From Podospora anserina (Eukaryota), in contig CM030336.1 in NCBI GenBank assembly GCA_017654855.1, positions 1,674,001 through 1,738,000 on the forward strand: a DNA stretch of 64,000 nt. The letters run 5' to 3'. A program made the position numbers and the translations under genes. Below are positions 11,121-48,230 of the stretch, piece after piece; within the stretch, counting starts at the first letter, position 1, and every line of letters starts with the position of its first letter. The notes under the pieces are model-generated. The model was not told where the DNA came from. It did no database searches and saw nothing but the letters and a program-made list of their open reading frames with translations.

Positions 11121-11121
11121 T

Positions 11122-11147
<26 letters not shown>
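11121..11147. repeat. (CT)n microsatellite upstream of the cytochrome b561 gene
   Basis: ttctctctctctctctctctctctctc run. Confidence 0.9.
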
Positions 11148-11152
<5 letters not shown>

Positions 11153-11301
11153 TTGTCTCTTACAACTTCAGGCTTGTTTCTTTCCTTCGGCGTCAATCAC
11201 CATGAGTTATTAATCGCCCAGGTACATACACAAAAGACAGACGCGGTGGTCTCTATGCTACATGGTACCGGATCATCAGGCGCGGCCGGCGATTCATCAA
11301 G

Positions 11302-12879
11302 ATGGCCTCCCTCACGCTCGCGTTACTGCTTGCCCTCTTCGCCCTCCTCACCTCTGCCGACCCTTCGGTACCCACACAAAACACCCAGTTCTGCAACTTT
11401 GGGCACCCCACCGGGCATGCCGATTTCTGCTTTGGTCTGTCGGTGAAAAATCACTCGAGCCCGAAGCCAAATCACGACTTTCACAAGGATTTTCACGTCA
11501 GCTTATCGATCCGCCGATCGGGGAAGCTAGGGTGGACGGCTGTTGGGACGGGGCCGACGATGGCGGGGTCGGTGATGGTTGTTGTTTACGGGGATCCGGG
11601 GAGGGGAAGGCCGGCGGTTAGTGTCAGGAGTGTGGATGGGCATCACCTGCCCGGGACTATTGATCATCAGGGTGTCGATGGGGAGGTGAAAGGGGAGTGG
11701 GAGGGGGTTGAACAAGGGGGGGTGGTGAGGGTGATGAGGGCGGAGTGGGTTCTTTTGGGTGGGGGAAAGGAAGGGAGACATGATGATGAGATGGAGGAAT
11801 GGGAAAAGCCGGACGGGCCAGCGACGCATGCCGCACGGGTGGAGGTTGTTTGTGAGAAGTGCGATACTTTTGGGAGTGTGCAGAGCTGGGGTAGTGGGGG
11901 AACAGGGGGGAGTATGCCGTGGATTTGGGCTTGGAATGATCATCAGGATTTTGAACATGATGGGGACGGGTTTGAGGTTGGGGCGAAATTGAAGATGCAT
12001 AGGCATCGTGAGGGGAGTGGGGGGTTTGGGAGGTTTTGGGTTGATATGCGGAGGGCTGCTCTTGAGGGAGGGAGACATGAGTGGGATTTTGAGGAAAAGG
12101 AAGGGAACAGGAGGGTGGGGACGAGTGATGGGCCGATTGGGGTCGGGGCTTGGTTTGACTTTGTGGTGAGGGTTTGGTCGTTGGCGAAGATTCATGGGGT
12201 GGTGATGGCGGTGGGGTTTTTGGGGTTGTTCCCGTTGGGGTTGGTGATGATCAGGATGAATAGTGGGAAGGGGAGGCCGTTTAAGAGGCATTGGAGGGTG
12301 CAGGTTTTGGCCACGACGGTTGCGGTTGTTGGGGCGATGATTGGAGGACGGTTGTCAAAGTGGCATATGCCAAAGACATCACATCAGTGGTTGGGGGTGG
12401 GCATTGTGGTAGGGTTGGTTGTGCAGAGTGTTTTGGGGTGGAGGCACCATGTTGACTTTGTGAGGATCAAGAGACGGACGTGGATTTCTCACGGGCATAT
12501 CTGGCTGGGGAGGTTTTTGGTTGCTGGGGGGTTGGTGAATGTGGTTTTGGGCATGTTGTTGGCTGGCAAGGGTGCAGGGTCGGTTTGGTTGGTCGTCGCG
12601 GTGGGAGTGTTGGAGGCGGCTGGGTTGGGCTACTGGCTATGGAGGGCTGAGAGGCAGAGGAAGCAGGCTGCTGGTGCGGGGGAGGATGGGACGGAGGCTT
12701 TGGCTTTGATGCCGAGGAGTAGCGATGGAGGGGAGAATTATTTTGCATTGGATGAGAGCGAAGAGGAAAGCTCGGATGAGGGTGAGGATGGCAAGATGTC
12801 GGATGAGGAGTCATTGCGGAAGAGATCAGTGGACTCAGCAACTTCGGTGAAGAAGAGTTTGGCGGCAACGAAGGACTAA
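11302..12879 (+). CDS. Secreted/membrane DOMON-type (CDH-cytochrome-like) plus cytochrome b561 domain protein
   Basis: Signal peptide; GWTAVGTGPTMAGS (heme Met) and WIWAWN...KMHRH (heme His); multi-TM region with His ligands IHGVVM, RHWRVQ, SHQWLG, HIWLGR; acidic tail. Confidence 0.8.
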   Translation: MASLTLALLLALFALLTSADPSVPTQNTQFCNFGHPTGHADFCFGLSVKNHSSPKPNHDFHKDFHVSLSIRRSGKLGWTAVGTGPTMAGSVMVVVYGDPGRGRPAVSVRSVDGHHLPGTIDHQGVDGEVKGEWEGVEQGGVVRVMRAEWVLLGGGKEGRHDDEMEEWEKPDGPATHAARVEVVCEKCDTFGSVQSWGSGGTGGSMPWIWAWNDHQDFEHDGDGFEVGAKLKMHRHREGSGGFGRFWVDMRRAALEGGRHEWDFEEKEGNRRVGTSDGPIGVGAWFDFVVRVWSLAKIHGVVMAVGFLGLFPLGLVMIRMNSGKGRPFKRHWRVQVLATTVAVVGAMIGGRLSKWHMPKTSHQWLGVGIVVGLVVQSVLGWRHHVDFVRIKRRTWISHGHIWLGRFLVAGGLVNVVLGMLLAGKGAGSVWLVVAVGVLEAAGLGYWLWRAERQRKQAAGAGEDGTEALALMPRSSDGGENYFALDESEEESSDEGEDGKMSDEESLRKRSVDSATSVKKSLAATKD

Positions 12880-13699
12880 GGTCACTTCCAGGTCCTTTAC
12901 CGTTTATTAACAAAGCAGACAATACAAGTATGTATGCATTTGTATGATGGGGACTATCGCTTTCTTGATCGCAACCCTTTTCATTATTTGGCTCGAACTG
13001 CAGGCCAAGTGATTGACAAGGCTGTTCTTATCAGCATCACCAGTGCACGAGGTGCTCTTGCAGGCGGCCATCATGCAGAGCGAGTTACACAAAGGTCTCG
13101 GCAGGTTGCGACACTGACAGCTCAGGTACACCATGCACTGATGATAGCTGCCGAGAACAAAAGGCTCACTTGAAAGGCATCAGTCAGTACAACATCGATA
13201 TGAATATTGGCATCGATCAAATCCATTCTGGCAATGATCAACATTTTTTTGCCACCAAGACTTTCGTCTAGACCCGACCGGACTCTTGGGTCTTCCAAAA
13301 GTGCCGCAGCTGACATCTGCCATCCCACCATCTTTCGACATGACGCTAGCGAAAGGCTTTCAGCCTCACCCTTGGGCAACTGCACTTCTTATTCGCCAAG
13401 GCCCTGGTTCACCACAGTTGGGGATCCCTTTTTCAGAATTCTTTGGATTCGAGACGGGCCTGAGGGCAAGCCACGCATGATGGAATCGTGTGGTTGTGGT
13501 GGGAGAAGCTGGGTGATGGGAGCCACATTGGTACGGTAGTGATGGGGCTGGGGATATGGGATGCTGTGAGTTGTCGGACTTGGAGGATAGGAACTTGAAA
13601 GAGGTTATAAGGTGATGGTCGACGTTGTTGCCCCGTGCAGGAGGATTTGCCTTCTGGCGCATGCCCGATCGTTAATGGGTAAGCCTTCGGGTGGGAGAG

Positions 13700-15833
13700 A
13701 TGCGCTTTCAACATCAAGTTGTGCCGCTGGTCGTGACGGCAGCGGGCTGGCTGGGTCGGGTTGAAGGGTCACCTATTGGAAGTCAAAATGGAATTGCGAC
13801 GGTAGCGCGACCAGAAACGAGTCCAGTCGGTTACGGAATACTTCGATATGCCTCACCGGACCTTCGACGAAGCTTGCTAGGGGATGAGGGAGGCGTGCCA
13901 GGTGGGCTTAGCAAGAGACAGTGTGCTGGTCAGCTTATTTGCACCGCATGGATCAACGTCTGCTGCCCGCTTGGAACGACATGCTGCAGCGCGACGACTT
14001 GCTGTCTGGCTGGGTATGGTTGCTATAGTGGGTATTGTCTCAAGGATACGGTGTAAGTTCGAGGCTCATATCTTTCTCCCGACGGGCAGTACTAGGTGAC
14101 GGTGCTGACAGAGTATTGTTAACTGAAAAAGATACACATTGACAGTCACCAGGACTGTGTGGACTACCAGATACTCAACTTACACCGACTACGAAACATC
14201 CTATTCCACCTATGTGAGCCTCAAATACGATTACACCACAGTCACAGTTCGATCGAAGAACGGAGTGGCAACATCTACAGAATGGACGACGGTCACTCGA
14301 GAAGCAGTGAAACGACGACAACTGATAGCTCCAACAGCAACAAGCACGCATGACGTTGGCCACACTCCGTCACCGACCAAGCCACCAAGATTGGAAGACC
14401 TTGGCGCTGAAACGATGGAGTCATCACCAAACCATCCTGGACTTGTCAGACGCGTTCTCGAACGAGCCGGCGTGGTAGAAAAGAGGGCCTCAACGGCGTG
14501 GATAACGGTGTGGCCAACCTGGACGACAACATTCTGGTATTATCGCACGTCCTGGTACTACAGCTATGTGACCAGTGTCAGATACAGCACCATCACCAGC
14601 ACGCAGATCATCTTTGATGGGGCTAGCTCCACAACGACGGTTCGGTCCACCACGACAGTCTTCACCCAAAAGCCACCGCCAGCTCAGACACCACCTCCCA
14701 ACAACCCCCCCGCGGCAGATCCCCCTCCGGCAAATAACACCCCCGCCCCCCCGCCAGCCGACGAACCCGCGCCTACCAAACCCCCCGAGACAGTCACCTT
14801 GACTCAATCCCTGCCCGACAATGGAGGTGCCGGCGGCGGCGGCGGTGGTGGTGATACGAACAACACCCCCCCGCCAGCACCAGACACAACACCCGTCTCA
14901 GTAACAGTCTTCGTCACACCATCAGACATCGTCCTCCCCACTGACTCGTCCGCCACCCTCAACCTCAAAACCTCCACCTCGGCAGGAACAGTCTTTATTA
15001 TCGCCACAACCGAAACCCCGTCCCCGGCTCCACCTGCCAGCGGTACGCTGCCTCAAGGAACGGTGATAGGGATAGGCGTTGGCTCAGCCTTAGGGGGTAT
15101 CGCCCTCATTGCCACGTTGGTGTTCTTCTTCCTCCGCTACCGAAGAAAGAACCCCCCTCCCTCGACCGATGACTCGACCGTGGGCCGCAACTCCCAAACG
15201 GCGGCCATTTCTGGCGGTGGAGCGGGTGGGGGAGCTGGTGGGGGAGCACACGACAGCGCGTTATACGGCATTTTCGGAAGAAAAGAAATTGATTCCAGGT
15301 CTCCAAGCGTGACCGTCAGTTCGCCCGTCGCCGGTTCACCCTCCCCCGGGAACCTCACCGGGGCCGGGACGGTCAGTTCCATGTCGCCTCCACCACCGGA
15401 GCGACAGCAAAGAGGGGGGAGTTATGTCTCTGAACTTGAACAACATGCGGGACGGAGGACACCCGGGATGGGGGAGCTGCATGAGACGACGAGGGGGTCG
15501 GAACTTTATGATACGGGGTATGGTGGCTATGGATGGAAGCCGCCGCAGGAGTTGTCTGCGAGGAGGTTCTCGCCTGGACTGCAGGAGATGCCTGAGGAGC
15601 CTGGGCATTATGCGGGCATGGGGCAGGATAGGCCTGTGCCGTATAGGCAGTATGATGGGGCTGCTGTGCCGGATTTGAGTGTTGGGTCGACGCCGCAGAT
15701 GAGGGGGGTGAGGGGGGAGGATCCGTATGGGTTGGGGGATGTGCCTTATCCGAGCGCAGAGTTGTTGGCTAGGGGGTACGGGGCTGGGCCTGGGGGTGGG
15801 CAGGGGCAGGGGCGGGGTTGGGAGGGAGGGTGA
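13700..15833 (+). CDS. Type I membrane, mucin-like cell-surface protein (signal peptide, Cys-rich module, Thr/Pro-rich stalk, one TM, cytoplasmic tail); intron 14053-14131
   Basis: MRFQHQVVPLVVTAAG signal; QCAGQLICTAWINVCCPLGTTCCSATTCCLAGYGCYSGYC; TM GIGVGSALGGIALIATLVFFFL followed by RYRRK; the phase-2 intron joins ORFs 13691 and 14139. Confidence 0.75.
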
Positions 15834-26174: not shown

Positions 26175-28277
26175 TCAACCGAGGACAATATCCCGCACCT
26201 CTGGGTTCTGTCGATCCCAGCCCTCCTTCCAAATGGTACCACATCCCCTTCGATATGCAATTCCCTCCCTCCGCTCAACCCACAAAACATTGTAAAACTG
26301 GAACTCCTCCAGCTCACGAGTTTCCTCGTTCAGTCCCCATTCCGGCAGGTATATCTCCTTGAGCCACTTCGACCTCGTGTAGTATGCCTTCCCTTCCGAT
26401 ATCACGATACACTCACACAGCGCATCCTTTTCCAAAACCGGATCCTCCCTCGTGAAAGGAACCTTCAACCTGCCCACTATTTTCCCAGAACTATCCACAA
26501 AATGGTAGTTCACAAACGGCGCCATCTCTTCTTCCCAGGCAACCCTGACCAGCTTGCTGGTCTCTTCCTTCTCAGGCTGCACCCGAAAAGAAGCCACCGA
26601 CACACTCCCATGAAGAAGCCAACCCAACTTCTCCTTCTCCACCGTAAGCCCGCCTGTATCAATCGTCGGCACATCAAAGAACTTCAAATCCAACCCCCCA
26701 ACACCCCCTTGCTTGAACATCCGAGCGAGATGCGGAGTGAGGTTGACAAAGCTGATCGGCTCATCAGCAGGAGCATGATACCACCTGACCACCGGAGTCA
26801 GCTCGATCGAAGGGTTGTTCCCAAAAGTGTGATCGCTCAAGTTGTTCGCCACACTCCCCTGGAACGAAGCCCACGACCAGCTAGGAAACATCAGCTCCCT
26901 GCTCCCCGGCGCGACAAGCCTCGGTTTTGACCCCGCCTGAGGCTCCCACAACATGGCCACGTCGAAGAACATCTTTGGCATCCCATGCAGAAAACCACCA
27001 TCATAAGTCCGGCTGAGGACATCCAGAATCCCAGAAAAGGCCCGAAGACCGTCTGCTTGGTACGTCATCCTTCTCCGTTGATACTGCCTCACCAACCCCT
27101 CGAAATAGCGAAAGTCGGGCCTCTTGGGGGTCTTGAGCTCAAAGGTGAAGTGCCTATCAAACGCCAGATGCGCCGGCCTTTTCTTCTCCGTCCTCCATGT
27201 CTCATCAACCACCATCCCATCCGGCTCCGCGGCGGCCCCTTCAACCCAGACGGAGCACTTGCACTGCCAGATCACGCTCCCCCTAAAAAAAACGAGCGAC
27301 CTCCTCGACAGCAACCGTTCTTGGAACGTCCAAGCTCTGTTATGCCACGTGGTGAAATACCTCGCCTCCTCTGTCTCCGGCCCCGGACGCATCCGGCACT
27401 CGGGGGAAAACTCCAGGATTGGAAGCTCCGGAAAGGGGCGGGAAGAGCCCACGCCATGGAGACCAGTGTTGGCATCGGCTCCGTCAGCGGCAATGATGGT
27501 GAACTGGGAGTTTGCGTAGATGGAGGCCATGGAGGCGATTTGCTGGGATTTGTTGGCCTCGTCGTCTTGGATGATGCAGAGTCTATCCACCCAGAGGTAG
27601 CGCTCGCCCATGTCGCGCGTGACCTTGATGGCGTCTTGGATTGTCAGTGGGAGCCGGGGGAGGATCTCTGGGGAAGCGAGAGAGCTTGGGAGCTGGAGGG
27701 TTGAAAAGTTGGAGATGCGGGTTTCGAGGATGTCGGGGAGGACGCCCCAGACGTAGCTGAGGGTGGTGTATTTTGGGGGGGTGCCGGGGAACTGGACGAG
27801 GCGGTGCTCGTCGATGTCGATTAGGATCATGTCTGTGACGGGCGGTTGAGTGGGGGTGGGTCGGCAGTCTTCGTGGTGCTGTTCGCAGTATTCCGGCCAT
27901 CGCTTGAGGGAGCTGATGTCGATTGTGTCTGCGTCGATGATCTTGTAGTGGACCGAGGTCGGAGCAAGTTCTGATGAGGGAAGCAGCTCGAGGTGATAGG
28001 CTGAGTGGTCCCAGCAACCACATCCGGTTCGAAAGAAGAATCGCTTTTGGGGAAAGCAATCGAGTCGTATAGGACAGGTCAGTTGGAGGGGCGAGTTTGG
28101 CGCTAGACGAGCGAAGGAGTCGAGGGTGTATTTGCAGGTGGCACATTTTGGATCGAAACTTGCGGCGAGTCTGATGATGTTCTCACCGACTGCTTCTCCT
28201 CGAATGGTCTTGAGAATGGCCTCTGAAAAGAAGGCGCAAGTCTTGCAGCCAACTGCCGGATGCTCGCTTGAGGCCAT
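26175..28277 (-). CDS. HET-domain protein (heterokaryon incompatibility, TOL-like)
   Basis: LIDIDE...YTTLSYVWG, LPLTIQDAI, YLWVDRLCIIQDD, QIASMASIYANS, WHNRAWTFQERLLS, FPSWSW, YNVLWVE..GIAYRRG; intronless. Likely ATG at 28277; the ORF is open to 28418. Confidence 0.92.
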   Translation of the reverse strand: MASSEHPAVGCKTCAFFSEAILKTIRGEAVGENIIRLAASFDPKCATCKYTLDSFARLAPNSPLQLTCPIRLDCFPQKRFFFRTGCGCWDHSAYHLELLPSSELAPTSVHYKIIDADTIDISSLKRWPEYCEQHHEDCRPTPTQPPVTDMILIDIDEHRLVQFPGTPPKYTTLSYVWGVLPDILETRISNFSTLQLPSSLASPEILPRLPLTIQDAIKVTRDMGERYLWVDRLCIIQDDEANKSQQIASMASIYANSQFTIIAADGADANTGLHGVGSSRPFPELPILEFSPECRMRPGPETEEARYFTTWHNRAWTFQERLLSRRSLVFFRGSVIWQCKCSVWVEGAAAEPDGMVVDETWRTEKKRPAHLAFDRHFTFELKTPKRPDFRYFEGLVRQYQRRRMTYQADGLRAFSGILDVLSRTYDGGFLHGMPKMFFDVAMLWEPQAGSKPRLVAPGSRELMFPSWSWASFQGSVANNLSDHTFGNNPSIELTPVVRWYHAPADEPISFVNLTPHLARMFKQGGVGGLDLKFFDVPTIDTGGLTVEKEKLGWLLHGSVSVASFRVQPEKEETSKLVRVAWEEEMAPFVNYHFVDSSGKIVGRLKVPFTREDPVLEKDALCECIVISEGKAYYTRSKWLKEIYLPEWGLNEETRELEEFQFYNVLWVERREGIAYRRGCGTIWKEGWDRQNPEVRDIVLG

Positions 28278-28582
28278 TGTGAACGATGAGCCCAAGGCAT
28301 GTGGCTTGAAGATGAGGACGAGCTTTGAACTTGGCACCAGGCTCTCGGGTCCCGGGGCCTTTTCTGTCAATCCGCAGAAGCCATAGCCATAGCCATCGGG
28401 CAAAGCGGGGCTTTTCACTAGTTTGTGCGGCTGAGCATGGCTTCACTCCAGGGTGGTATTGCCGGCATGAAACGCTCCGAGGGGAAACAGCTGCTTACAT
28501 CCGATGTCGACAAAGACTTCAGGAACCACGTACATGTATGTATATGTCTCTGCCGTTGAAATCTACAACCATGTCCCAGCCA

Positions 28583-37555: not shown

Positions 37556-38545
37556 GTTGGCGCCTTCGTGTTTGCTATCTGTGTTGACATACTAGCGGTT
37601 CAGGAGGTTAGCTTCCACCAAAAGACATCGATGGCGTTGCAGAGGGCGCTCGTGGTGGGGAGGTACCGTACCAGTATGCTTGCCCGACATTGGATGGCGC
37701 GTTGAGGTATTCAGTTGCAGATGTCTATATATATGTCGGTTGATGCTCCAAGAGTACTGAATACGTCGACGGTGTTTCCGAGAGAGCAAGGTGGAGAGTG
37801 TTTGTCTGCCCGTCCCAAGATTGGGATAATAATCGATGCCTGGATGTTTGGAGTGTCAAGTGTTCACAAGAGCTGTGGCATGTGCCTCTGCCCACTGAGA
37901 CCTGCAGCTCCAGCGCGTCTGCTGATTGGCTGTGCTGGCCCAACCTGACATGTCCTTGTGCAACGTCACTGTGGGCCTGACTTCTAGCACGAACAACCCT
38001 AACCCCTCTGGCATTGTTGACCAAAACTCCCAAAACTGACATGCCATGAGCCTGCTTGTCAGGTCAGAATCTTGCTATAGGTAGGCCTCGTCAATTGTTC
38101 TACAGTTCATCTTTCTCTCCGATTGGGTTGTAATGCTTCAACGGCTCTATGTGAGCAACACAGCATGGCCACTACGCAAGGCCTTCACTTGGCGTGGATC
38201 AAGGCGACTCTCGAGGCGACCGCCTCTTCACAACCAGACGCACCATCAAAGAATCCTGATTGACACACCAACCGAAATGAACCATCGACCGCAACATACA
38301 TAGCACCCATAGTGATGGCAACACATTCTCTTCGAAAGCCTTCAATCTGACAATCCGAGAGCACCAAGTAGCCCCTTATTGGCCAGCACGCCGTCTTTGC
38401 CCCACAAACACCGCCCAACAGCTTCGGCGCCTGTTAGTCTTAGTGGGCAGTGCTCGACTACTGTCATTATGGCTGCCTGAAAGCTGCGAGAGACATCTCA
38501 TCGCTCTCGTAGTGAAGAGGATGACAATCGCCGCTCGTTTACACG

Positions 38546-41500
38546 ATGACCTGGTTTTTACAGTACTCAGTTCGGCCTGAAACGATACTGACGGTACTCG
38601 CCGTGGCCATCTCCGTGGACCAACTTGTCACCATCGTAGCGACTACTGGAGCAGTCGTTCTATCTTTGTGTTTCTGGCTACATATAATTGGGCTCTCGTC
38701 GGACTTCTTCCCGACCTTGGGCCAGCATGCGCGGCTTCAACCTGACTCTTTTTCACAGGAGCACCTCTCTCAGCGCCAACTCGAGGAAGAGGACTTACAG
38801 CCAAAGGCGGTGGGCGAAGAAATGAAATCAAGGGAAGAGTTGTCTTCGACACCCGTCGGGGGAAGCTCAGTGAGTAGTTCCGACTCGAGAAGTCAGTCAG
38901 AGAGTGAAGCTTTGGAGGAGCAGGCAGTGGAGCAAGGCTACCTCGGAAAAGTCCCAGCTGAGTACAATCTACCAGAGGACGATGTCAAAGGACCAGTATG
39001 AGATCGTCCACATGCTTCCCATTATAATGCTTCTGCTGACTACCTGCGCAGTTGGAAGTGCCCATCTGGTTTTTGAATTACAACCTGAAGACAACGAGTG
39101 AGCTTGCCAACCACATGCCCAAAGTAATCATCAAGGAAGACGCGCCAGATACAGCATACGGTGAGGATGCCGTTTTTGAAATCAAATCAGCTGTGTACAA
39201 CAACCTTTGGTCTGTCTTGTCAAACCCGAGCCAGACATGGGAGTCAGCAAACGAAGAGAATGTGCCCTTCTTCAGGAGGGCGACCCTTCTCCTGACCGCG
39301 ATTAACACCATGTACGGGGCTCGGGGCCACCGCGCCTTCTTTGAAGCTGTCGTCGAACAGTTTGCCACTGACATTGGGGCTGATCTTATCGCACTGGACA
39401 TTGAGGATGTTTTGGACTTGGGTGAGTACTGGTTAAATGGACCAGAAAGTCGGGGCTGTGTACCGGAAGGCAAAAGGGACAAGCCGCTGTTGTTCGCACA
39501 TACATTGCTCGACGTTCCAGACCAGAGGATATTCAGGCACGGTACCGGTAGCGTCACGCCTGAGCGTCGACCATTGATCATACACATTCCAGATGTTCAC
39601 CACTTCGACATACCCGACGATAATGACTTCCAAGGCAGCCCAAGATGGTTCGACTTCGCCGACATCAAAGAAATACTCGACGTGATACTGCTAGCCATCA
39701 TCAATCAAGCGGGAGGGAACGGTGCCACCTTGCTTGTGCTTTCGAGTCGCTATTACACCACATCCCACAGAAACACTGACATTCCCCTCGTAAATGCGCT
39801 TCTTGAGGCCGAAGAGGACATAACACTGGTGCCACTGAAAACTCCAAGCCAGGTCAAACTGCTTGAAGAAGGACTTCCCAACTGCGATCGTCATCTTCGC
39901 ATAAACATCCGTTCATTCCAGCGACAGATAAGGGCCACTATCGGGGACTTTACTTCGCCGCTATTGCAGCCTCACACGGCATGGGAGTTCATCAATGACT
40001 GCGAGACATCGAGGAGGTTTTGCCTCGGGCACCGGCAACATGAGGAAATCATATCAGTTGGGAAGAAAGTTGCGCTTCAAGTCGGAAGACATGGAAGCGT
40101 CACTGCCGATCATATTCGACAATCACTTATTTCAGTGGCCTCGCACGGAGAAATGCTAAAAGATTGGGACATTGTGAGTAGTGTTGATGACGTCCAGTCG
40201 CGCTGGGCTCAATTTTCGCCACATATTAGACAAAAGCTCGAGCAAGCTGAGAACGGGAATAATGACGCTGAGAAACAATTATTGGATCTTGTTGTTGATC
40301 CCGGTTCGTCACCACCGGCGTTGGGGTCCTTGACTGCTCTGAGGCTAACATCGCAACAGGGTCGGTCATGCACGGATGGTCGAATATCCAGCTCGATTTG
40401 GACACCAAGGATGCCATCGCCCAGTTGATTTACCAGGCAACAGGGACTATTTCGTCCCATATCCGGTCTGGAATCCTCGCAACTGTCAAAGTCGGCGGTG
40501 CTCTACTCTACGGCCCCCCAGGGACAGGCAAGACTCATCTAGCAAGAGTGCTGGCCCACGAGCACGAGCTGGTCATGATTTCGGTATCTTCGGCCGACAT
40601 TGAGTCGAGTCGTGTGGGTGAAACAGAAAAGACCATCCAAAACCTCTTTAGTCTAGCTCGCAAACTCCATCCAAGCATCATTTTCATCGACGAAGCGGAC
40701 TCCCTCCTAAAGCGCAGGGAACCACACGACCACACGTGGGAGCGTGCTCGACTGAACCAATTCCTTGCCGAAATGGATGGTCTCAAACAGGACATGAACT
40801 CGCCGTTTGTTATCCTGGCCACCAACCTTCCACAAGCACTTGATGACGCCGTTCTCCGTCGCGTTCCTGCAAGATTGTTCATGGGCTTACCGCGGGCGCG
40901 GGCGAGGCGAGAGATTATTGCAATCTGCCTCCGCGAAGACGTTGTTGCAGACGACGTGAACGTTGATGACCTTGTACGACGCACCAAGGGTTATACAGGC
41001 TCCGACCTGCATACTCTGTGTGTCCAGGCTGCTTTGATCTCAGCGGCCGAATCCCAAGCGTCGAGGTCTGTTAACAACATGACCGGGCTTAGTAGCATAC
41101 AGCGAGTTCACTTTGAAAAGGCACTGAGACGATCAGCACCTACGAGCACTGGACACGCACTGGCTGCGATCCGGGAATTTGCCAAAGCAAGCGACCCACA
41201 AGCATTGGCTCAGTTTACAGCGCCTGACAATGATGAGGTAGAACAAGCATCGACATCGGCAGAGCCTTCGTTGCCGCGCCAGAAGACGGGAATCACGACC
41301 GGTACATTGACACCTCCGGATCAAAGTATTGACAACGTAGGAGATTCGGGGTCTGTGACAGAGGGTGAAGCCGCTTCTGACTTTGCATCGCCTGAGTTCG
41401 GAGTCCCAGAAGCTCCAACATCGCATAAAACAACCTCTGCCTTGGGGCCGCTTTACACACCCCTGAAAAGCAACAGCCGACAAATCAGAGTGCTATCCAT

Positions 41501-43730
41501 CACGCCACAGTCACCCAAAACTGAGGACAGTTGGATAGAGTGCAGGCTTGAGACGGTCGACCTCGATGACATGGAGGTGTGGTACCACGAGCTGCGGACC
41601 ATACTCCAAGCAAACGATGGCGAGTTCCCATTTGATGTGACCAAAACACCTCCGGCATGGATTCTAGCGACAGCTGCAAACGAGCTGGCCAAGGAACAAC
41701 CAAAAGACACTGAGATGCACTGGGCATATGTTTTGGAAAAGTTCAACTCGATCCCTGAGCTGAAGACGTTGAAATCAGACGTACCATTCGAAAGGTTGAC
41801 AAGATGGAAGGAGTTCGCTCCGAGATATGAATGGGGGGACTACATAGCTATGAGTTATACCTGGGTGAGCACTGTCATCATCGTCAGCTATGCGGTATTC
41901 ACGCTGACACCTTTATCTCAGGGACCTCCCGAACCTTCTCACACCATCTTGGTGAATAATCACGAGGTACAAGTTGGTGGCAACCTTTACCAGATGCTCT
42001 TGAGGCTCAGTAAGTCAGTAGAGGTCAAACAGTCACATCTCAAGGTCTGGATTGATGCCCTCTGCATCAACCAAAATGACGACAAAGAAAAGGAGACCGA
42101 GGTGCAAAAGATGGATGTGATATACAGCATGGCTCTGGCAGTTCGAGGGTGGATAGGTACCCCGTCCTCGGCAACACCAGGGTCCCGTTTTGACACCGCT
42201 TACACATTGGTGCGACAGTGGTTCAGTCAGCATCAGGGAATCCCCAAGTCTTACATTTCCGACCCCACACTATACCCTCAGTCACTACTTCGGTCGTTGC
42301 GAACTGTGGCCTTTGAGCTCATCAGACTGCCGTACTGGAGTCGCACTTGGATCACACAGGAGATTGCGCTCGCTAATTCTGTTTGTTTTTGGTACGGTGA
42401 TGACTACCTCTTTGTACCCGGAGAGATAAAGCGAGCGCTCGAACCGTTTGTCGACTTTAGCTCGGCACTCAATCAGCCATCAGACTTGCACTTTATGTGG
42501 GATGACGGTGAGCTTGACTCCAGCTCTGATCTCCCCTCGATCCAGGAACAACGGATGTTGTCTCAGCACGTCCATCGAATCTTTGTCAAGTTTGACCTTC
42601 GGGAGCTCCCCAGGGTTAATAACACCGGACTTCTCATCACGATTTTGACTTTGGCCCAAGCATCCGCCGCCACCGATTTGCGCGACAAAGTCTATGGGAC
42701 ACTGGCCCTGCTCCCCCTCTCCATCAGAGACAGTGTCAAACCCAGCTATGCAGAGTTTTATGCGGCACTCGATGCTTACGCAGACTTTGCTAAAGCCTGT
42801 ATCCTCGGCCTGGGCGATCTATCAATATGGACCTACCTAACCCGGTTACAGCCCCGTCCAGGGGGTAGCTCTCTACCGAGCTGGGCCATCGATCTCAGTA
42901 GTGAGGCGGACGATGCTTTGGTTCAAGAACGTACGACCCCACCATCACGTCCTGGTTCCCGCTTCAACGCCAACGCGGGAAAACAACAATGTCCTGCCTT
43001 TTCTCACGACGGACGCATCATGTATTGCGAGGGACTGATCATCGACTCCATTGACACGTTGACGATGTCGCCCTCGCGCGCAAGGGAAATCACATTACAG
43101 GATTCGTATTTCAACCCGTTGTCTTCAGTGACCAACCCCCCCGCTGCCCCGTCGAACATGCCCAACGAAGATGCCAGGACGGCTTTAGCACGCGTGCTGC
43201 ACGCAGAACCCGAGTATGACATATCCAATCCAAGCTGTCTCCTCAATCTGGCCTGGGGTCTAAAGGAAGATCGTCCGCCAGACGGGCTCAACTGGCAAAG
43301 ACTGGAAGCCAACATCAAGGACGCTTCTGAACTAGCTCACGCCCACATGTCCTTGTTGTGGTGGCGCGCCCTTCTCCATGCCAACTTCGACTTTATGATC
43401 AAAGGGTGCCCACTGCACAGCTACTTTTCTTCAGGTGCGGCACAAGAGTTCCAACCACACGAGTACACGTACCAGGATCTATCTCAGACATCTTATCGAA
43501 GACTTTGCATGACTTCAAATGGTCGGGTTGGGATGGTGCCAGGTCTGGCCCAAGCCGGCGACAAGATTGTCGTTCTCTTTGCTTGCCAAAAGCCGGTGGT
43601 GGTTCGCCCCAAGGGGAAGCATTACGAGTTCATCGGCACCTGTTTTGTGGACGGGCTCATGAGGGGGGAGGCCGTGGCTGATATGGAAAGCGGGGGCAAG
43701 CTCAATCCTGAGATGATTTCTTTTTGTTAG
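38546..43730 (+). CDS. Fusion protein: N-terminal hydrophobic anchor, degenerate AAA-like region, classical AAA+ ATPase (Msp1/spastin-like), HET-6-type HET domain; introns 38996-39051, 40304-40359, 41865-41921
   Basis: Walker A GPPGTGKT, Walker B IIFIDEAD, sensor-1 ATN, SRH LDDAVLRR, lid GYTGSDLHTLC; then LYTPL..RQIRVL, YIAMSYTW|G, WIDALCINQ, YWSRTWITQEI, ATDLRDKVYG, LPSWAID, GDKIVVL, FIGTCFVDGLMRGE. All three introns are canonical and phase-compatible. Confidence 0.88.
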
Positions 43731-43755
43731 GTACCACTTCTTCCTAGTAAACTTG

Positions 43756-44938
43756 TTACAAAATCCCCCCCTCGCTCCACCCCTCCCAATCCTGCTCCCA
43801 GTCAACATCCACCATCTCCTCATCAGCATCAATTGCCAACCTCGCCATCAGATCCCCCAGCTCCTCGGCCAACTGCTCGTCAAAATCAACATAAACATCC
43901 ATATCCTCCACCCCATACCTCGCACTAAACTCATCCAGAATACTTCTCCCCTGTTCGGTTCTCTGGTCAGCCAAAATATCAACATGCACCGCCCCTTCAA
44001 TCCCGCCAAAATACTCCTTTCGCGTCTGCCCATCTTCATTCTCCTCCAACCAAGCGGTAAACTCGTCCACCACCCTTACAAGCTCGCTTCTCCCCCTCGC
44101 GGAGTTCATCCACCCTATTTTGACCCCGTGCTCCCTGTCCCATAATCTAGCTTCAACAGTCATCAACACCAAACCATGAAGGACCTCCCCGGTGACACGT
44201 CCAAACCACGCCTCGGGTTGGTGTGCGATAACCTCCTCCCAGAATAAACTCTGATCTTCCAGGCTGCGCATTTTCTATTGGTCATCAGCATCGTTCTGTT
44301 TCCAGTCTGGTTTGATCTCACCATCCCCTTCCCTTTCAAAACCCCCAACCCAGCCTCGAAAACAGAGACCAATCCCCTCTCTACCACTTTTTTGTCCAGC
44401 TCGTTGGCCCCCGCGCCGAATGCGTGCAGGAGAGCCCTTCTTTCACGTCCCTCCAGGCCGGCTAACCTCCTTTCTAGCTTTCGGCTGTGCCGGTTTCGGG
44501 TTTCGCGCACCGGCCAGGAGAAGCCGATTTTGGGGAGCAGTTTTCGAAGGGATGCTGGTGGGCGTTTGACCTTTTCTGCTGACAAGGCCTTACTGGTCTG
44601 TACCGGCGGGGTGGATGGCTGAGCAGCGGCACGACGAGGTGGTGATATGGGAGGGGAAGGGGGGGGGAGGCTCATCGCTGAGCAACGCCTAGCAAGTGGC
44701 ATCCTTTCCGACGGCGGCAACCCTTTTTTTCGGCTTTGACAGAGAGAATAAAGCTGGGAAGATGTCGTTTTCCTATTCCTTAGACACCGCCTCTGTCTCG
44801 GCAAGCTCGATCTGGAGGTTGCTGTCGGCAAACAGCCAAGTCTCCTCCTCTTTCTCGGGCGGGGGTTCACAGGCCTGCCATCATCTTCCCCATTCCCACC
44901 ACCACCACCACCACCACCACCACCTCGACCACCTCGAC

Positions 44939-44977
<39 letters not shown>

Positions 44978-45062
44978 TATCATCATTATCATCATTATCA
45001 TCATCATCACGGTGTCGAGGTTCTGAAAACCGGCCGAGCGGAACAGCAACTTCCTGAGCCAT
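43756..45062 (-). CDS. Hypothetical protein with poly-Asp/poly-Gly tract and basic NLS-like PRPRKRRR; intron 44275-44321
   Basis: ATG 45062 (MAQEVAV); a phase-0 intron gtgaga...ctgat...tag joins ORF 44163-45380 to ORF 43756-44271. Confidence 0.6.
44895..45010. repeat. Compound (CAC)n/(CAT)n trinucleotide repeat inside a CDS
   Basis: Runs of cac and cat(cattat); encodes poly-Gly and poly-Asp/Asn on the minus strand. Confidence 0.9.
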
Positions 45063-45569
45063 ACCTACCTGAGTTAAGCTTGAATTGGACGACGAGCAGA
45101 GGGGAGACACAAAATAGTCGATCCGGTGGTCCAGGTAGGAGCAGGCAGCTGAAACAGGTAGCAAACAGGACGAACAACCAAAAAGTCTCTCCACGACAAT
45201 ACTCAACTCCCGAGAGACGACAGCTACATATATACCCAACCCAACCAAACATGTCTCACATTCAACAATGCCAACCCCCCCAGAAAGAAAGGCCTTGGTA
45301 CCCATCAGCAACAAAGCATTGGTTTTGCCTGTACTGATGGAAGGCTTCAGTGGGCACCAGATACTGCTAGACCTCAACAATGGTTCATTCAGCCCACAAC
45401 TGCCTTGTACAAAATCTGCGAAACGATACAGCCCAACTCACACAGAGCCTTTACCCCTCCTTGCATGTTCTGCCACAATGTAGCACTACCTGCCTAGTCA
45501 TTGACCAAAAAAAGGTCAAAAGGAAACTCAGTTTCTGAATCTTCAAACATTGTCACTCAGCCACTGCAC

Positions 45570-45938: not shown

Positions 45939-47875
45939 CTACTCCAGCTGGCCAATGCCGAGGTGGTCCACATCGGCCTTAACGATACGCAGAGTGTTTG
46001 TGTTGCCCATGCCGCCCTTCCAGCCCTGGACAACCACCACCGTCTCACCCTCGTTGAGAACACCCAAGTCGATAGCGTGGGTAAGACCCCACTTGATGCG
46101 GCGATCCACATCCTCCTGCCAGTTGACTTTGCTAAAGTCGGGCTTGGCCTCTGGGAAGGAGAATGGGTATACGCCGCGGTACAAGTGGGCATATCTCGAG
46201 GCCGACGCGTTCCGAGTGATCATGATGATGGGGCAAACAGGGCGGTACTTGGAGATGAGGCGGGCAGAGACCCCCGAGGTGGAGAGAACGAAGATGGCCG
46301 AGGCGTTGAGGTCGAGAGACGTCCGGACAGCCGCCATGGCGCAAGACTCGACAATGGAGACGGGGCGCTTGACAAGGGCGCACAGCTCCTCGAAGTGGCT
46401 GACATATGGGATGGTGTTCTCGGCCTTGAGGCAGGCCTCGCTCATCTCACGCACAGCCTCGTTGGGGTAGCTACCCTTGGCTGTCTCACCGGAAAGCTAG
46501 GCGATGTTAGTGCCTGGGTGCAAACAAGACATCTTTGCTGCAAACATACCATGACACAGTCGGCGCCGTCAGTAACTGCGTTGCCAACATCACTGATCTC
46601 GGCTCTGGTTGGCCTGGGGTTCTTGATCATGGACTCGAGCATCTGAGTGGCGCAAATGACGGGCTTGCCAGCAATGTTGCACATGGCAATGATCTTCTTC
46701 TGAGCGGCGAACACCTCGGCGGCGGGAATCTCGATACCGAGATCGCCACGGGCAACCATGACACCGTCGGTCTCCTCGAGAATCTCGGCAAAGTTGTTGA
46801 GACCTTGTCTGTTCTCAATCTTGGCAATGATCTGAATGTGCTTGCCCTCCTCGCCGAGGACCTCACGAATGTCCTTGATGTCTTGCCCTCTGCGGATGAA
46901 AGCTGTGGCAAATCAAAAAATTAGCACATGTCGTTACAGCCAGCCATGGGCGTACATACAAGCAAAGACCATGTCGACATTGTTCTTGACGCCGAACAGG
47001 AGATCGGCCTTGTCCTTCTCGGAGAGGGCGGGCAGATCGACATCGGTGTTGGGCAGGTTGACACCCTTGCGGGAAGAGATGAAACCATTGTTGCGCGCCT
47101 GAACCTTGATGGTCTTGTCGTCGACAATCTCGAGCACATCGAACGCCAAGACACCGTCGTCGACGTAAATAATTCGGCCTGGGGAGATGACCTTGGTGAT
47201 GTTCTTGTAGTCGACGTACCTGGTGCAGTGTCAGTTTAGGAGGTTCGTGGGGGGTGAATCGGGGGAGCTTACATGTTCTCGGTGGTGCAGGCCGTGGCAT
47301 ACTTCTCATCGGTGGTGATGTTCAAGATGGCGCCGGCGGAGATGGGGAGATCGGCATCGTTGACGGTGTTGCCGGTACGGATCTCGGGGCCCTTGGTGTC
47401 GAGGGCGATGGCGACCTGACGGCCCTTCTGGGCCTTCTCGGCAGCGCGAGCATTGTCAATGACAGACTCTGCAGTCACAGACTGTTAGCACCGACGATCA
47501 AAGGAAGACAAGACTTGTGCCAAGCATCCGTGGATGGCCAGGCGGTGGTGTCTGCGGGTCGCCCAGGTGGAACCAGGGAAAGCTGGACCTGAGCGGACCT
47601 CGCGACCTCTCCACCAAAGCGCATCATCGAGGCATGGATAGCGCAGGGAACATACGGTGGTACTCGTAGCTGCCGTGGGAGAAGTTCATGCGCACCACGT
47701 TGAGGCCAGCCTCGCGGAGCTTGTTGATGGCCTCAACAGAGTTCGTCTTGGGGCCAATGGTGCAGATGATGGAGGTGCGGCGGAAGTTGCGGGCAGGCTG
47801 GAACGCGGTATCGAGCTGCGAGAGCCATTCGATCTTGCCCCCCAAGTTGAGGTGGTCGAGAGCTGTGTTGACCAT
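45939..47875 (-). CDS. PYK1: Pyruvate kinase; several introns (about 47470-47656, 47219-47271, 46903-46960, 46497-46549)
   Basis: [80 protein letters not shown]. Confidence 0.96.
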
Positions 47876-47953
47876 GTTGAAGGACTGTAGGGGAATTCTG
47901 AGCGAGACTCGGAACCCGGAAGGAGGAGATAGAGGTCGGACTGCTAAAGATTC

Positions 47954-48230
47954 CTGGAGATGAGGTCTTGTCAGCGGGACGGGTTCGAAATCCAACGATG
48001 GAATTGCTGAGATGTTTGCTGAGGCGGAAACAAGAACACAAAATCGAGTTCCGGCCGGAAGTCGAGCATAAGAAGGCAACCCCTCGCCCAGCCAGGGTCC
48101 CGTCGGACTGCAGCGATAACGGAACACCGGATGCGCTGACGCCGCAACCCCCGGCCAGCCAACGAGAGACAGAAGAGACAGACGAGACAGAAGAGACAGA
48201 AGACAGAAGAGACAGACGAGACAAACTCAC
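47954..48230 (-). other. Probable 5'-UTR intron of the pyruvate kinase gene
   Basis: Minus strand aagag|GTGAGT at 48230 ... GCTGAC branch ... ctccAG| at about 47954, upstream of ATG 47875. Confidence 0.6.

What the first reader, a model, noticed from the sequence alone, without database searches (positions are those of the whole stretch)
38546..43730. Putatively membrane-anchored classical AAA+ ATPase fused to a complete HET domain: candidate non-NLR fungal immune receptor
Seen: one 4-exon gene with canonical, phase-compatible introns. The AAA module and the HET domain share one uninterrupted reading frame (40368-43730). A Ser/Thr/Pro linker joins them, and there is no Met between the AAA lid (last Met about 41079) and the HET start (LYTPL, about 41451), so the HET part has no obvious start of its own. 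The N-terminus has two hydrophobic stretches followed by a degenerate AAA-like region (VVEQFATDIGADLIALD, PLIIHIPD). Established: HET domains are TIR-related cell-death effectors of fungal allorecognition, usually standalone or N-terminal on NACHT/NB-ARC NLRs. Msp1/spastin-type AAA proteins form hexamers, and Msp1 is membrane-anchored. Inference: ATP- or ligand-driven AAA oligomerisation could cluster C-terminal HET domains at an organelle membrane. That would be an inverted-architecture guard or decoy receptor. I do not know this architecture as characterised, but I cannot confirm novelty without a search.
Basis: partly seen in the sequence, partly recalled or inferred. Interest (0 to 1): 0.8.

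Follow-up and report, generated by a model that had tools for sequence, protein, structure and literature searches.

The report
Two-ring AAA ATPase fused to HET
This is a real, transcribed Podospora anserina gene that joins an ATP-driven ring-forming motor protein to a complete fungal cell-death (HET) protein, and the same unstudied fusion recurs across four classes of filamentous fungi.

Summary
Window 38546-43730 (+) is one 4-exon gene encoding 1671 aa. Its product is identical to the annotated Podospora anserina protein apart from one mis-annotated in-frame intron. Spliced RNA contigs from 4 runs in 4 studies remove all three introns, and single contigs span from the AAA part into the HET part.

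The protein has four parts:
- a hydrophobic N-terminal exon found only in the Podospora complex;
- a degenerate AAA fold with no P-loop (D1);
- an intact classical AAA domain with its lid (D2);
- a disordered linker followed by a complete HET-6-type protein (HET plus Het-6_barrel).

The fusion is not strain-specific. In a HET-blind search with the AAA domain alone, 31 of the 55 nearest single-AAA relatives carry HET. They come from Sordario-, Dothideo-, Leotio- and Lecanoromycetes. The AAA and HET trees share subclades, so the fusion is old.

Function is inferred only. Most likely it is a regulated-cell-death effector controlled by its own ATPase. The membrane anchor is lineage-specific. The pore-loop aromatic residue is lost here. 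I saw no hypervariability among sister species.

The parts
38546..38995 (+). Exon 1 (residues 1-150): start codon, hydrophobic N-terminus, then an acidic/Ser-rich stretch. Specific to the Podospora anserina species complex.
   Evidence: The splice to exon 2 is seen in 4 of 4 runs. No homologous region in other fusions.
38585..38710 (+). Hydrophobic segment, residues 14-55. Candidate membrane anchor (one long TM helix or a hairpin).
   Evidence: KD19 windows 2.22 (14-32), 2.17 (27-45) and 1.74 (37-55); the only such windows in the protein. Prediction from hydrophobicity only.
38996..39051 (+). Intron 1, 56 nt, GT..AG.
39052..40303 (+). Exon 2 (residues 151-568): family-conserved N-domain.
   Evidence: Homologous in 12 of 58 proteins compared by BLASTP. 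Found in 70 family proteins by phmmer.
39052..39876 (+). D1: degenerate AAA alpha/beta fold (residues about 151-425), with no Walker A.
   Evidence: AF2 model pLDDT 81, pTM 0.80. Foldseek top hits are all classical AAA, E 5.5e-07 to 2e-05. VIA Z 10.2-11.9, rmsd 3.0-5.3, 158-196 residues aligned. 0 of 70 family proteins have [AG]xxxxGK[ST] upstream of D2.
40304..40359 (+). Intron 2, 56 nt, GT..AG, splits a Gly codon.
40360..41864 (+). Exon 3: D2 AAA, lid, C-terminal helix, linker and first part of HET.
40503..40886 (+). D2 AAA ATPase core (Pfam PF00004; P0068 residues 616-743). Walker A GPPGTGKT at 40512-40535, Walker B IIFIDEAD at 40677-40700.
   Evidence: Motif conservation over 79 family rows. 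PDB sequence matches to p97, spastin and katanin.
40602..40628 (+). Pore loop 1 (ESSRVGETE). Arg stands where 69 of 79 family rows have W, Y or F.
   Evidence: Role of the aromatic residue: PMC7018516, passages.
40953..41057 (+). AAA lid (PF17862).
41205..41450 (+). Ser/Thr/Pro/acid-rich linker with no Met. Poorly conserved.
   Evidence: Translation and DNA. 1-6 substitutions per 100 residues among sister species.
41451..41864 (+). HET module, N-terminal part (LYTPL ... YIAMSYTW).
41865..41921 (+). Intron 3, 57 nt, in frame, GT..AG, between W and G of SYxWG. Retained in the 1690-aa reference annotation.
   Evidence: Skipped in 4 of 4 runs. The 19-aa insert is seen only in P0065. pLDDT is below 50 when it is translated. 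HET score rises from 80.0 to 88.5 bits on splicing.
41922..43730 (+). Exon 4: rest of HET (to about 42362; WIDALCINQ and WSRTWITQE blocks), helical middle region, C-terminal barrel, stop codon.
43497..43727 (+). C-terminal beta-barrel (Het-6_barrel, PF26639).
   Evidence: Strands at model residues 687-762 with pLDDT 95-97. PF26639 is precomputed on the 97%-identical cluster representative. Atlas nearest clusters carry PF26639 Het-6_barrel in 74-82% of members, score 0.98-0.99.

Best explanation
Shown. This is the Podospora anserina gene whose sister-species orthologues carry locus tags ending in 503950. It is expressed and encodes one 1671-aa polypeptide. The polypeptide consists of a lineage-specific hydrophobic N-terminus, a nucleotide-dead AAA fold (D1), a catalytically intact classical AAA domain with lid (D2), a disordered linker, and a complete HET-6-type protein (TIR-like HET domain, helical middle region, Het-6 barrel). 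It belongs to an old Pezizomycotina family in which about half of the D1-D2 AAA proteins carry this HET module.

Inferred mechanism. The HET-6 module is the executioner of a regulated cell-death or defence response, and the attached ATPase is its switch. Classical AAA domains of this kind assemble into ATP-dependent hexamers on a bound polypeptide or partner. Assembly of D2, with D1 as scaffold or docking surface, would bring six HET modules together on their flexible linkers. That would turn them on by induced proximity, as oligomerisation turns on TIR domains and the HET domains of NLRs. In most family members the aromatic pore loop is kept, so the trigger is probably engagement of a substrate protein. 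In Podospora the pore-loop aromatic is lost and a membrane anchor is gained. This suggests a derived, membrane-tethered version that relies on assembly rather than threading.
For: - Gene, splicing and single transcript.
- D2 catalytic set is intact and conserved over 79 family rows: Walker A exact in 67, Walker B DE in 78, sensor-1 Asn in 79, the two SRH arginines in 77 and 79.
- D1 has an AAA fold without a P-loop.
- HET scores 88.5 bits over the full model length. The query keeps 64 of 64 columns that are at least 90% conserved in a 37-row HET plus C-terminus alignment.
- Het-6_barrel.
- Strong, old linkage of the two halves: 31 of 55 nearest single-AAA relatives carry HET in a HET-blind search. 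Subclades are shared between the AAA tree and the HET tree: {P0068, P0002, P0003}, {P0004, P0005, P0017, P0018}, {P0007, P0008}, {P0016, P0079, P0080}, {P0012, P0074}, {P0013, P0015}.
- Established knowledge, read as passages. [quoted passage not shown] HET alone is sufficient to induce death when overexpressed (PMC10197012; PMC12881547). [quoted passage not shown]
- Weak fold echo: the HET core hits TIR domains and nucleoside 2-deoxyribosyltransferases at Z 4.1-5.3.
Against: - No experiment bears on function.
- About half of the same AAA family (24 of 55) lacks HET, so the ATPase has a role that does not need HET.
- The fold similarity of HET to TIR is below the tool's own noise level. The best Z is 5.5, and Foldseek found nothing at E <= 0.001.
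- No repeat or other obvious sensor domain.
- No excess divergence among 5 sister species. Substitutions: HET 5-8 of 290, C-terminus 3-9 of 421, AAA 3-11 of 285, N-domain 9-18 of 425. Nothing here points to an allorecognition locus under balancing selection.
- This protein's pore loop 1 lacks the aromatic residue, so substrate threading may not apply to it.
- HET sits C-terminal to the ATPase, the reverse of NLRs, so the analogy is loose.
- How HET domains kill is unknown (PMC10890737).
Confidence: 0.45

Rival explanations
1. Fused guard-guardee pair (Rosetta-stone reading). Stand-alone HET-6-type proteins work with a separate, often linked partner protein. Here the D1-D2 AAA protein is that partner. 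It would be a cellular machine that is monitored, and the HET-6 module fires when the ATPase is modified, blocked or hijacked. Oligomerisation as such would not be the signal.
For: - HET and non-HET forms are interspersed in the AAA tree: 21 label changes, at least 7 forced by starred branches. HET-only proteins are nested among fusion HETs: 10 of 18 lie inside the 48-row clade. This is what repeated fusion and fission of a two-gene system would give.
- The C-terminal half is a complete stand-alone-type HET protein.
- In het-B, a HET protein recognises an adjacent-gene product through its C-terminal domain (PMC10890737).
Against: - I could not see the gene neighbourhood of any AAA-only relative, so adjacency of a HET gene is untested.
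- Some 'HET-only' or 'AAA-only' rows may be truncated gene models or short contigs.
- Nothing shows that this AAA family is a target of anything.
Confidence: 0.2
2. Safety-catch reading. The active AAA domain keeps its own HET module off, for example by holding it apart, remodelling it or disassembling HET oligomers. Death then follows when ATP falls or the ATPase is inhibited.
For: - Intact hydrolysis motifs.
- A flexible linker long enough for the tail to reach its own ring.
- AAA proteins of the Msp1/ATAD1/spastin kind are disassembly machines (PMC7018516, for Msp1).
Against: - Pore loop 1 of this protein lacks the aromatic grip.
- There is no evidence of a cis-interaction.
- It does not explain why half of the family lacks HET.
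Confidence: 0.1
3. Not a death or immune protein. The fusion serves organelle or protein quality control, with the HET part acting as an enzyme or binding module without killing.
For: - Only 4 of 132 P. anserina HET genes are het genes, and the role of the rest is unknown (PMC10890737).
- Orthologues are conserved without hypervariability.
- The gene is expressed in ordinary RNA data sets of 4 studies.
- The AAA family exists without HET.
Against: - Every HET domain tested so far induces death (passages).
- The family is patchy, confined to Pezizomycotina in named hits, and expanded and contracted like other HET genes. It does not behave like a universal housekeeping gene.
Confidence: 0.15
4. 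Annotation or assembly artefact: two genes read through, a strain-specific stop loss, or a pseudogene.
For: None found. The only anomaly is the retained in-frame intron in the 1690-aa reference protein.
Against: - Spliced contigs from 4 studies span the junction.
- Six Podospora species have full-length proteins of this gene with no gaps: five of 1671 aa, and P. anserina's own annotated at 1690 aa with the intron retained.
- Fusions occur in four classes.
- All conserved columns are kept.
Confidence: 0.02

Closest known systems
HNWD NLRs of Podospora (HET-E, HET-D, HET-R): HET-NACHT-WD40
   Same: A HET death domain is covalently joined to a P-loop ATPase that oligomerises. Same species. HET is regarded as the executioner (passages in PMC13449251; PMC3689799).
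   Different: - The ATPase here is a classical AAA (PF00004), not a STAND NACHT or NB-ARC.
- The order is reversed (HET C-terminal).
- There are no WD, ANK or TPR sensor repeats.
- A dead AAA tier precedes the active one.
Stand-alone HET-6-type HET proteins (N. crassa HET-6 and the many HET + Het-6_barrel proteins; compare P. anserina BH, which is HET + HAD + lectin fold)
   Same: The C-terminal ~740 residues have the same layout and are alignable end to end with 590-800-aa HET-only proteins.
   Different: - Here the whole HET protein is the tail of an ATPase.
- There is no lectin-fold domain.
- There is no sign of the allelic divergence seen at het-B, where allele products are about 60-70% identical (PMC10890737). 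Here orthologues in sister species are 97-98% identical.
Msp1/ATAD1, spastin, katanin (single-ring classical AAA proteins)
   Same: - They are the best single-domain sequence matches in the PDB: katanin MEI-1 137.9 bits and spastin 136.4 bits.
- Walker A and B, sensor 1, the two SRH arginines, the lid and a C-terminal helix are shared.
- Source names on relatives include 'ATAD1-A' and 'spastin-like'.
- This protein has an N-terminal hydrophobic segment, as Msp1 does (recalled for Msp1).
   Different: - 1671 aa, with an extra dead AAA tier and a HET tail.
- Pore loop is S-R-V-G here and K-(W/Y)-V-G in the family. Msp1 has a doubly aromatic K-W-Y-G (PMC7018516).
- The anchor is not homologous and is lineage-specific.
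Type II AAA proteins with one inactive tier (p97/Cdc48, NSF, Pex1/Pex6, AFG2) - recalled
   Same: Two stacked AAA folds of which only one is a competent ATPase. These are among the best overall PDB sequence hits.
   Different: - D1 here has lost the P-loop altogether and is only 20-30% identical within its own family.
- No N-terminal cofactor-binding domain of the p97 type was detected.
TIR-domain death and immune proteins activated by oligomerisation (SARM1, plant TNLs, bacterial TIR filaments) - mechanism recalled
   Same: A TIR-like domain is tethered to an oligomerising scaffold. Weak structural hits of the HET core to TIR domains: SARM1 Z 4.2, SpbK 4.2, IL-1RAcPb 4.5.
   Different: - No NADase activity has been shown for any HET domain (PMC10890737).
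- The fold match is below significance.
- The scaffold is an AAA ring rather than SAM, NB-ARC or a filament.

Membership tests
Classical AAA ATPase (PF00004 clade) | Walker A GxxGxGK[ST] and Walker B hhhhDE | tested here: met
   GPPGTGKT and IIFIDEAD are present. Pfam AAA 112.9 bits against a cut-off of 21.2.
Classical AAA ATPase (PF00004 clade) | Second region of homology: sensor-1 Asn and two arginine fingers, plus AAA lid | tested here: met
   ILATN and AVLRRVPARL. AAA_lid_3 34.7 bits against a cut-off of 27.2.
Classical AAA ATPase (PF00004 clade) | Pore loop 1 K-aromatic-hydrophobic-G | tested here: not met
   The query has S-R-V-G. 69 of 79 family rows keep W, Y or F. Motif definition from PMC7018516.
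Classical AAA ATPase (PF00004 clade) | ATP-dependent hexamer | not testable with these tools
   No assembly was modelled for D2. Inferred from family membership only.
Msp1/ATAD1 orthologue | Single AAA domain behind one N-terminal TM anchor, with a doubly aromatic pore loop | tested here: not met
   - An extra D1 tier and a HET tail.
- Pore loop S-R-V-G.
- The hydrophobic segment is present but lineage-specific and not homologous.
HET domain (PF06985) | Pfam match above the gathering score over the whole model | tested here: met
   88.5 bits against a cut-off of 22.5, model positions 1-146 of 146, on the spliced protein.
HET domain (PF06985) | Three conserved blocks (SYxWG; WIDxxCINQ; WxxRxWxxQE) | tested here: met
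   SYTW|G (restored by splicing), WIDALCINQ and WSRTWITQE are present. 64 of 64 conserved columns are kept.
HET domain (PF06985) | Induces cell death when expressed | not testable with these tools
   Known for other HET domains (passages). Untested for this one.
HET-6-type HET protein (HET + Het-6_barrel PF26639) | C-terminal Het-6 barrel | tested here: met
   - PF26639 is precomputed on the 97%-identical representative P0001 and on most fusions.
- Atlas feature score 0.98-0.99 to clusters with PF26639.
- A confident beta-barrel in the model.
- My own Pfam scan gave no hit for this region.
NLR / STAND receptor | NACHT or NB-ARC nucleotide-binding domain | tested here: not met
   No NACHT or NB-ARC hit. 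AAA_16 scores only 22-23 bits against a cut-off of 32.6.
NLR / STAND receptor | C-terminal superstructure-forming repeats (WD, ANK, TPR, LRR) | tested here: not met
   No repeat family in Pfam. Tandem Repeats Finder returned 0 rows.
TIR domain | TIR (flavodoxin-like) fold | tested here: inconclusive
   TIR and nucleoside 2-deoxyribosyltransferase chains hit at Z 4.1-5.3 over model residues about 129-390, below the tool's noise level. Foldseek found nothing at E <= 0.001. Remote sequence homology is published (PMC4986451).
het (allorecognition) locus | Highly divergent alleles or trans-species polymorphism | tested here: inconclusive
   Sister-species orthologues differ at 28-50 of 1671 residues. 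4 RNA runs show 1 listed SNP. No population sample was examined.

The most novel reading that the evidence does not exclude
The D1-D2 AAA module is a non-STAND counterpart of the NOD module. That would make this family a previously unrecognised class of eukaryotic cell-death receptor, in which a classical AAA hexamer senses a target protein by engaging it. The hexamer would then switch on six tethered TIR-like HET-6 modules. The AAA-only relatives would be the same sensors working with unlinked effectors.
Probability: 0.25. Interest if true: 0.85.

Novelty: new variant of a known kind. Interest (0 to 1): 0.6.

Why it matters
HET is one of the most abundant and least understood domains of filamentous fungi. 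P. anserina has 130-132 HET genes, of which four are known het genes, and how HET kills is unknown (PMC10890737). So far its only known regulated context is the NLR.

A conserved family in which a complete HET-6-type protein hangs on a classical AAA motor would give a second, mechanistically different handle on HET activation. The Walker A, Walker B and pore-loop residues are obvious sites for mutation. The gene sits in a genetically tractable, non-pathogenic model fungus.

It also widens the list of ATPase scaffolds that eukaryotes have coupled to TIR-like death domains. If instead the fusion turns out to serve housekeeping, that would show that HET domains have non-death roles, which is also an open question.

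Tried and rejected
- RNA run search. No listed holder is on record as RNA. The runs were labelled 'RNA? (a guess)'. Their RNA nature follows only from the spliced contigs.
- Whole genome. Not held, so paralogues in P. anserina could not be searched.
- Word-indexed search with residues 1-575. It found only the protein's own cluster. N-domain homology appeared only with BLASTP, phmmer and alignment.
- Metagenome scan with an alignment of AAA-only relatives. It returned 80 loci of generic AAA genes (30-40% identity). None of the 80 has an N-domain, HET or C-terminus match. The question of whether a HET gene lies next to AAA-only genes therefore stays open.
- Foldseek of the 763-residue HET plus C-terminus model against the PDB. 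Nothing at E <= 0.001. The wide VIA search gave a best Z of 5.5.
- Complex prediction on three copies of the HET core (residues 932-1250). No verdict; score 0.00 in two runs and the alignment was not used.
- Earlier findings of the scan. Nothing for this genome, and one unrelated note elsewhere.
- Rejected readings: Msp1 or spastin orthologue (architecture and pore loop); NLR (no NACHT or NB-ARC, no repeats); two-gene read-through.
- Literature. 'Pa_5_3950' gave 0 papers. 'HET domain' with 'AAA ATPase' gave 1 paper, whose text was not opened. PF06985 with PF00004 gave 3 genome surveys, of which one was read in passages and lists the two families separately. Heterokaryon incompatibility with ATAD1 or Msp1 gave none among the 15 listed.
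- Supplementary tables were closed. The lists of P. anserina HET genes (PMC10890737) and the expression tables (PMC3689799) may mention this gene.

Full report
**1. What is there**

The stop-to-stop ORF 40299-43730 (+) is 1143 codons long. It carries AAA (E 1.3e-32), AAA_lid_3 (8.6e-09) and HET (3e-22) in that order. Reading the DNA gives four exons: 38546-38995, 39052-40303, 40360-41864 and 41922-43730. The three introns are 56, 56 and 57 nt, all GT..AG, each with a CTGAC or CTAAC branch-like site. The CDS is 5016 nt, giving 1671 aa plus stop.

The product equals stored protein P0068 at 1671 of 1671 positions. It also equals P0065, named 'Podospora anserina S mat+' (CDP29360.1, 1690 aa), except for 19 residues that P0065 reads from the third intron. 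Full-length 1671-aa orthologues with locus tags ending in 503950 are annotated in P. comata, P. pseudoanserina, P. pseudopauciseta, P. pseudocomata and P. bellae-mahoneyi. They differ at 28-50 residues and have no gaps. So the window comes from P. anserina or something indistinguishable from it at this gene.

**2. Transcripts**

The run search listed no holder on record as RNA. However, contigs of four runs from four studies, laid on 38200-44000, skip exactly 38996-39051, 40304-40359 and 41865-41921 (GT..AG). Single contigs run from exon 1 to beyond the stop. X9 covers 38534-43780, and X1 and X2 have contigs of about 6.4 kb. Contigs without introns can only come from spliced RNA.

This confirms the model. 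It places the AAA and HET parts on one assembled transcript. It also shows that the in-frame third intron is removed. Contigs cannot exclude an additional internal transcript. But there is no Met between the ATG at 41079 and the one at 41571, and the latter already lies inside the HET module.

**3. The third intron**

It sits between the W and the G of the HET motif SYxWG. In a 37-row alignment, S, Y, W and the G after the intron are each at least 90% conserved. Splicing raises the Pfam HET score from 80.0 to 88.5 bits. When the intron is translated, its 19 residues are the lowest-confidence stretch of the structure model. The 1690-aa reference annotation is therefore wrong at this point.

**4. 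N-terminal half**

Exon 1 holds the only strongly hydrophobic windows of the protein: KD19 2.22 at residues 14-32 and 2.17 at 27-45. An acidic/Ser-rich stretch follows. Exon 1 has no counterpart elsewhere. All BLASTP alignments of residues 1-575 to other fusions start at query residue 144 or later (12 of 58 proteins matched). None of 37 other family members has an N-terminal TM-like window. The anchor is thus plausible but lineage-specific, and it is supported by hydrophobicity alone.

Exon 2 has no Pfam hit and no PDB sequence match. With a 27-row alignment it folds confidently (pLDDT 81, pTM 0.80). Foldseek's top hits are all classical AAA ATPases, E 5.5e-07 to 2e-05. VIA-align gives Z 10.2-11.9, rmsd 3.0-5.3 Å over 158-196 residues, to TRIP13, Msp1, katanin, spastin, p97 D2 and ATAD1 for model residues 1 to about 275. 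None of 70 family proteins has a P-loop-like motif upstream of the active AAA domain.

The protein is a two-tier AAA protein with a dead D1 and a live D2.

**5. The active AAA domain**

PDB sequence matches cover only residues about 559-845. They are to p97 D1 and D2 (about 112-117 bits each), AFG2, NVL and Rix7. Among single-domain proteins they are to katanin MEI-1 (137.9 bits) and spastin (136.4 bits).

Over 79 family rows the counts are as follows:
- Walker A is exact in 67.
- Walker B DE is kept in 78.
- The sensor-1 Asn is kept in 79.
- The two SRH arginines are kept in 77 and 79.
- Pore loop 1 keeps an aromatic residue in 69.

This protein is one of 10 rows without the aromatic, and one of 3 with Arg (S-R-V-G). 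In AAA translocases that aromatic residue grips the substrate, and Msp1 has two (PMC7018516, passages). The family as a whole therefore looks like a competent unfoldase. The Podospora copy may have given up threading.

**6. C-terminal half**

After a Met-free Ser/Thr/Pro/acid-rich linker comes a complete HET-6-type protein:
- a HET module starting at LYTPL (41451);
- the three classical HET blocks;
- a helical middle region;
- a C-terminal beta-barrel.

The precomputed Pfam of the 97%-identical representative lists PF26639. The Atlas names PF26639 Het-6_barrel and places the last 443 residues next to clusters carrying it, with scores 0.98-0.99. The query keeps 64 of 64 columns that are at least 90% conserved in the 37-row alignment.

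The AF2 model has pLDDT 81.6 and pTM 0.85. It has no significant Foldseek match in the PDB. A wide VIA search gives only weak hits of the HET core to nucleoside 2-deoxyribosyltransferases and TIR domains, Z 4.1-5.3. That is in line with the published remote HET-TIR homology (PMC4986451, passages), but it is below the tool's noise level.

**7. How common the fusion is**

- Search with AAA plus HET: 19 of 59 hits carry both PF00004 and PF06985 at 31-57% identity.
- Profile-free scan of 1.84 billion representatives: many more were found.
- Pfam re-check of large members: 6 of 6 confirmed as AAA, lid, HET in that order.

To avoid bias from a query that contains HET, I searched with the AAA domain alone. 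Of the 120 listed proteins, 65 have several AAA domains and are unrelated prokaryotic or Cdc48-like forms. The other 55 are single-AAA family members. Of these, 30 have HET by my phmmer and one more has it by precomputed Pfam. The remaining 24 lack HET, and all 24 have the D1 N-domain.

Named sources span four classes:
- Sordariomycetes: Podospora, Magnaporthiopsis, Xylaria, Nemania, Colletotrichum, Microdochium, Paramyrothecium.
- Dothideomycetes: Kalmusia, Bimuria, Lophiotrema, Zasmidium, Lasiodiplodia.
- Leotiomycetes: Hyaloscypha, Stipitochalara, Coleophoma.
- Lecanoromycetes: Squamulea, Gyalolechia.

The class was checked for one genus of each class; the other assignments are recalled.

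**8. History of the fusion**

The AAA tree has 84 rows. I left out 9 near-identical Podospora-complex rows, all proteins with more than one AAA hit, and all AAA hits shorter than 235 residues. It puts all 79 fungal family rows on one 100*-supported branch. Fused and unfused forms are interspersed: 21 label changes, at least 7 forced by starred branches. The query sits in a 12-row subclade made only of fusions (support 81).

The HET tree has 64 rows, 46 fusions and 18 HET-only. It gives a 48-row clade (100*) with 38 fusions and 10 nested HET-only rows. It also gives a second, very distinct 7-row clade made only of fusions (100*), whose members also cluster in the AAA tree.

Small clades recur in both trees: {P0068, P0002, P0003}, {P0004, P0005, P0017, P0018}, {P0007, P0008}, {P0016, P0079, P0080}, {P0012, P0074} and {P0013, P0015}. 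The two halves have therefore diverged together. The fusion is old, with later losses, splits or truncated models. The root is not inferred, and some 'only' rows may be incomplete gene models.

**9. Variation**

Among the five sister species, substitutions per domain are as follows:

| Domain | Substitutions | Length (residues) |
|---|---|---|
| Exon 1 | 1-8 | 150 |
| D1 N-domain | 9-18 | 425 |
| D2 AAA | 3-11 | 285 |
| Linker | 1-6 | 100 |
| HET | 5-8 | 290 |
| C-terminus | 3-9 | 421 |

The four RNA runs show one listed SNP. Nothing resembles the 60-70% allelic identity seen at het-B (PMC10890737). No population sample was examined.

**10. Surroundings**

Neighbouring ORFs on both sides have no Pfam hit. 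Another HET-domain ORF lies about 10 kb upstream at 26178-28442 (-). That is unremarkable in a genome with about 130 HET genes.

**11. Interpretation**

The identity of the gene is secure. Function is inferred.

The best reading is a regulated-death or defence effector whose HET-6 module is controlled by its own AAA switch, most simply through ATP-dependent ring assembly that clusters the HET tails.

The rivals are:
- a fused guard-guardee pair;
- an ATPase that holds HET off;
- a non-death role.

What argues for caution:
- half of the AAA family lacks HET;
- there is no sensor domain;
- there is no hypervariability;
- this copy has lost its pore-loop aromatic residue;
- how HET kills is unknown.

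**12. Novelty**

The proteins are in public databases under generic names such as 'AAA+ ATPase domain-containing protein' and 'protein of unknown function'. I found no paper that names the gene or describes an AAA-HET fusion. A 2023 review states that no recent evolutionary analysis of fungal HET proteins exists, and that HET is often the sole identifiable domain (PMC10197012, passages). Supplementary tables were closed and may list the gene.

I class it as a new variant of a known kind: a HET-domain death protein with a new type of ATPase partner.

Noticed in passing
window 41865-41921: The P. anserina S mat+ reference protein (P0065, 1690 aa) translates this in-frame 57-nt intron. RNA contigs of 4 studies and the five sister-species annotations splice it out.
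   Followed up: yes
window 26178-28442 (-): A second HET-domain ORF (755 codons stop to stop; HET at residues 225-375, E 1e-30) lies about 10 kb upstream of the gene.
   Followed up: partly
window 47627-48226 (-): ORF fragment matching the start of the pyruvate kinase barrel domain (PF00224, E 7.1e-19). Presumably one exon of a pyruvate kinase gene.
   Followed up: no
window 44700-45100, both strands: Long homopolymeric coding-like runs (Asp/Gly runs on the minus strand, His runs on the plus strand) in ORF 44166-45437 (-). That ORF has no Pfam hit.
   Followed up: no
window 10001-14000: Strong positive GC skew (0.16, then 0.33, in 2-kb bins) compared with values mostly under 0.1 (at most 0.16) in the other bins. 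The only tandem repeat found there is a short (TC)13 at 11122-11147. Long ORFs at 11206-12879 (+) and 14127-15833 (+).
   Followed up: partly
P0068, P0103, P0008 (pore loop 1): Three fusions that lie apart in the AAA tree have Arg in place of the pore-loop aromatic residue (S-R-V/A-G). This hints at repeated loss of threading in HET-fused copies.
   Followed up: partly
P0252 (Lasiodiplodia mahajangana, 1822 aa): An AAA-lid-HET fusion that continues into an Amidase domain (PF01425, E 8.1e-66) at residues 1505-1772, in place of the usual C-terminus. It may be a merged gene model.
   Followed up: no
P0181 (Dendryphion nanum, 1128 aa): A D1-D2 AAA family member without HET that carries an SH3 domain in an N-terminal extension.
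   Followed up: no
window 43756-44274 (-) and contigs of X1/X2: The 6.4-kb RNA contigs run about 640 nt past position 44000, over the convergent downstream ORF. The 3' ends of the two genes probably overlap.
   Followed up: no
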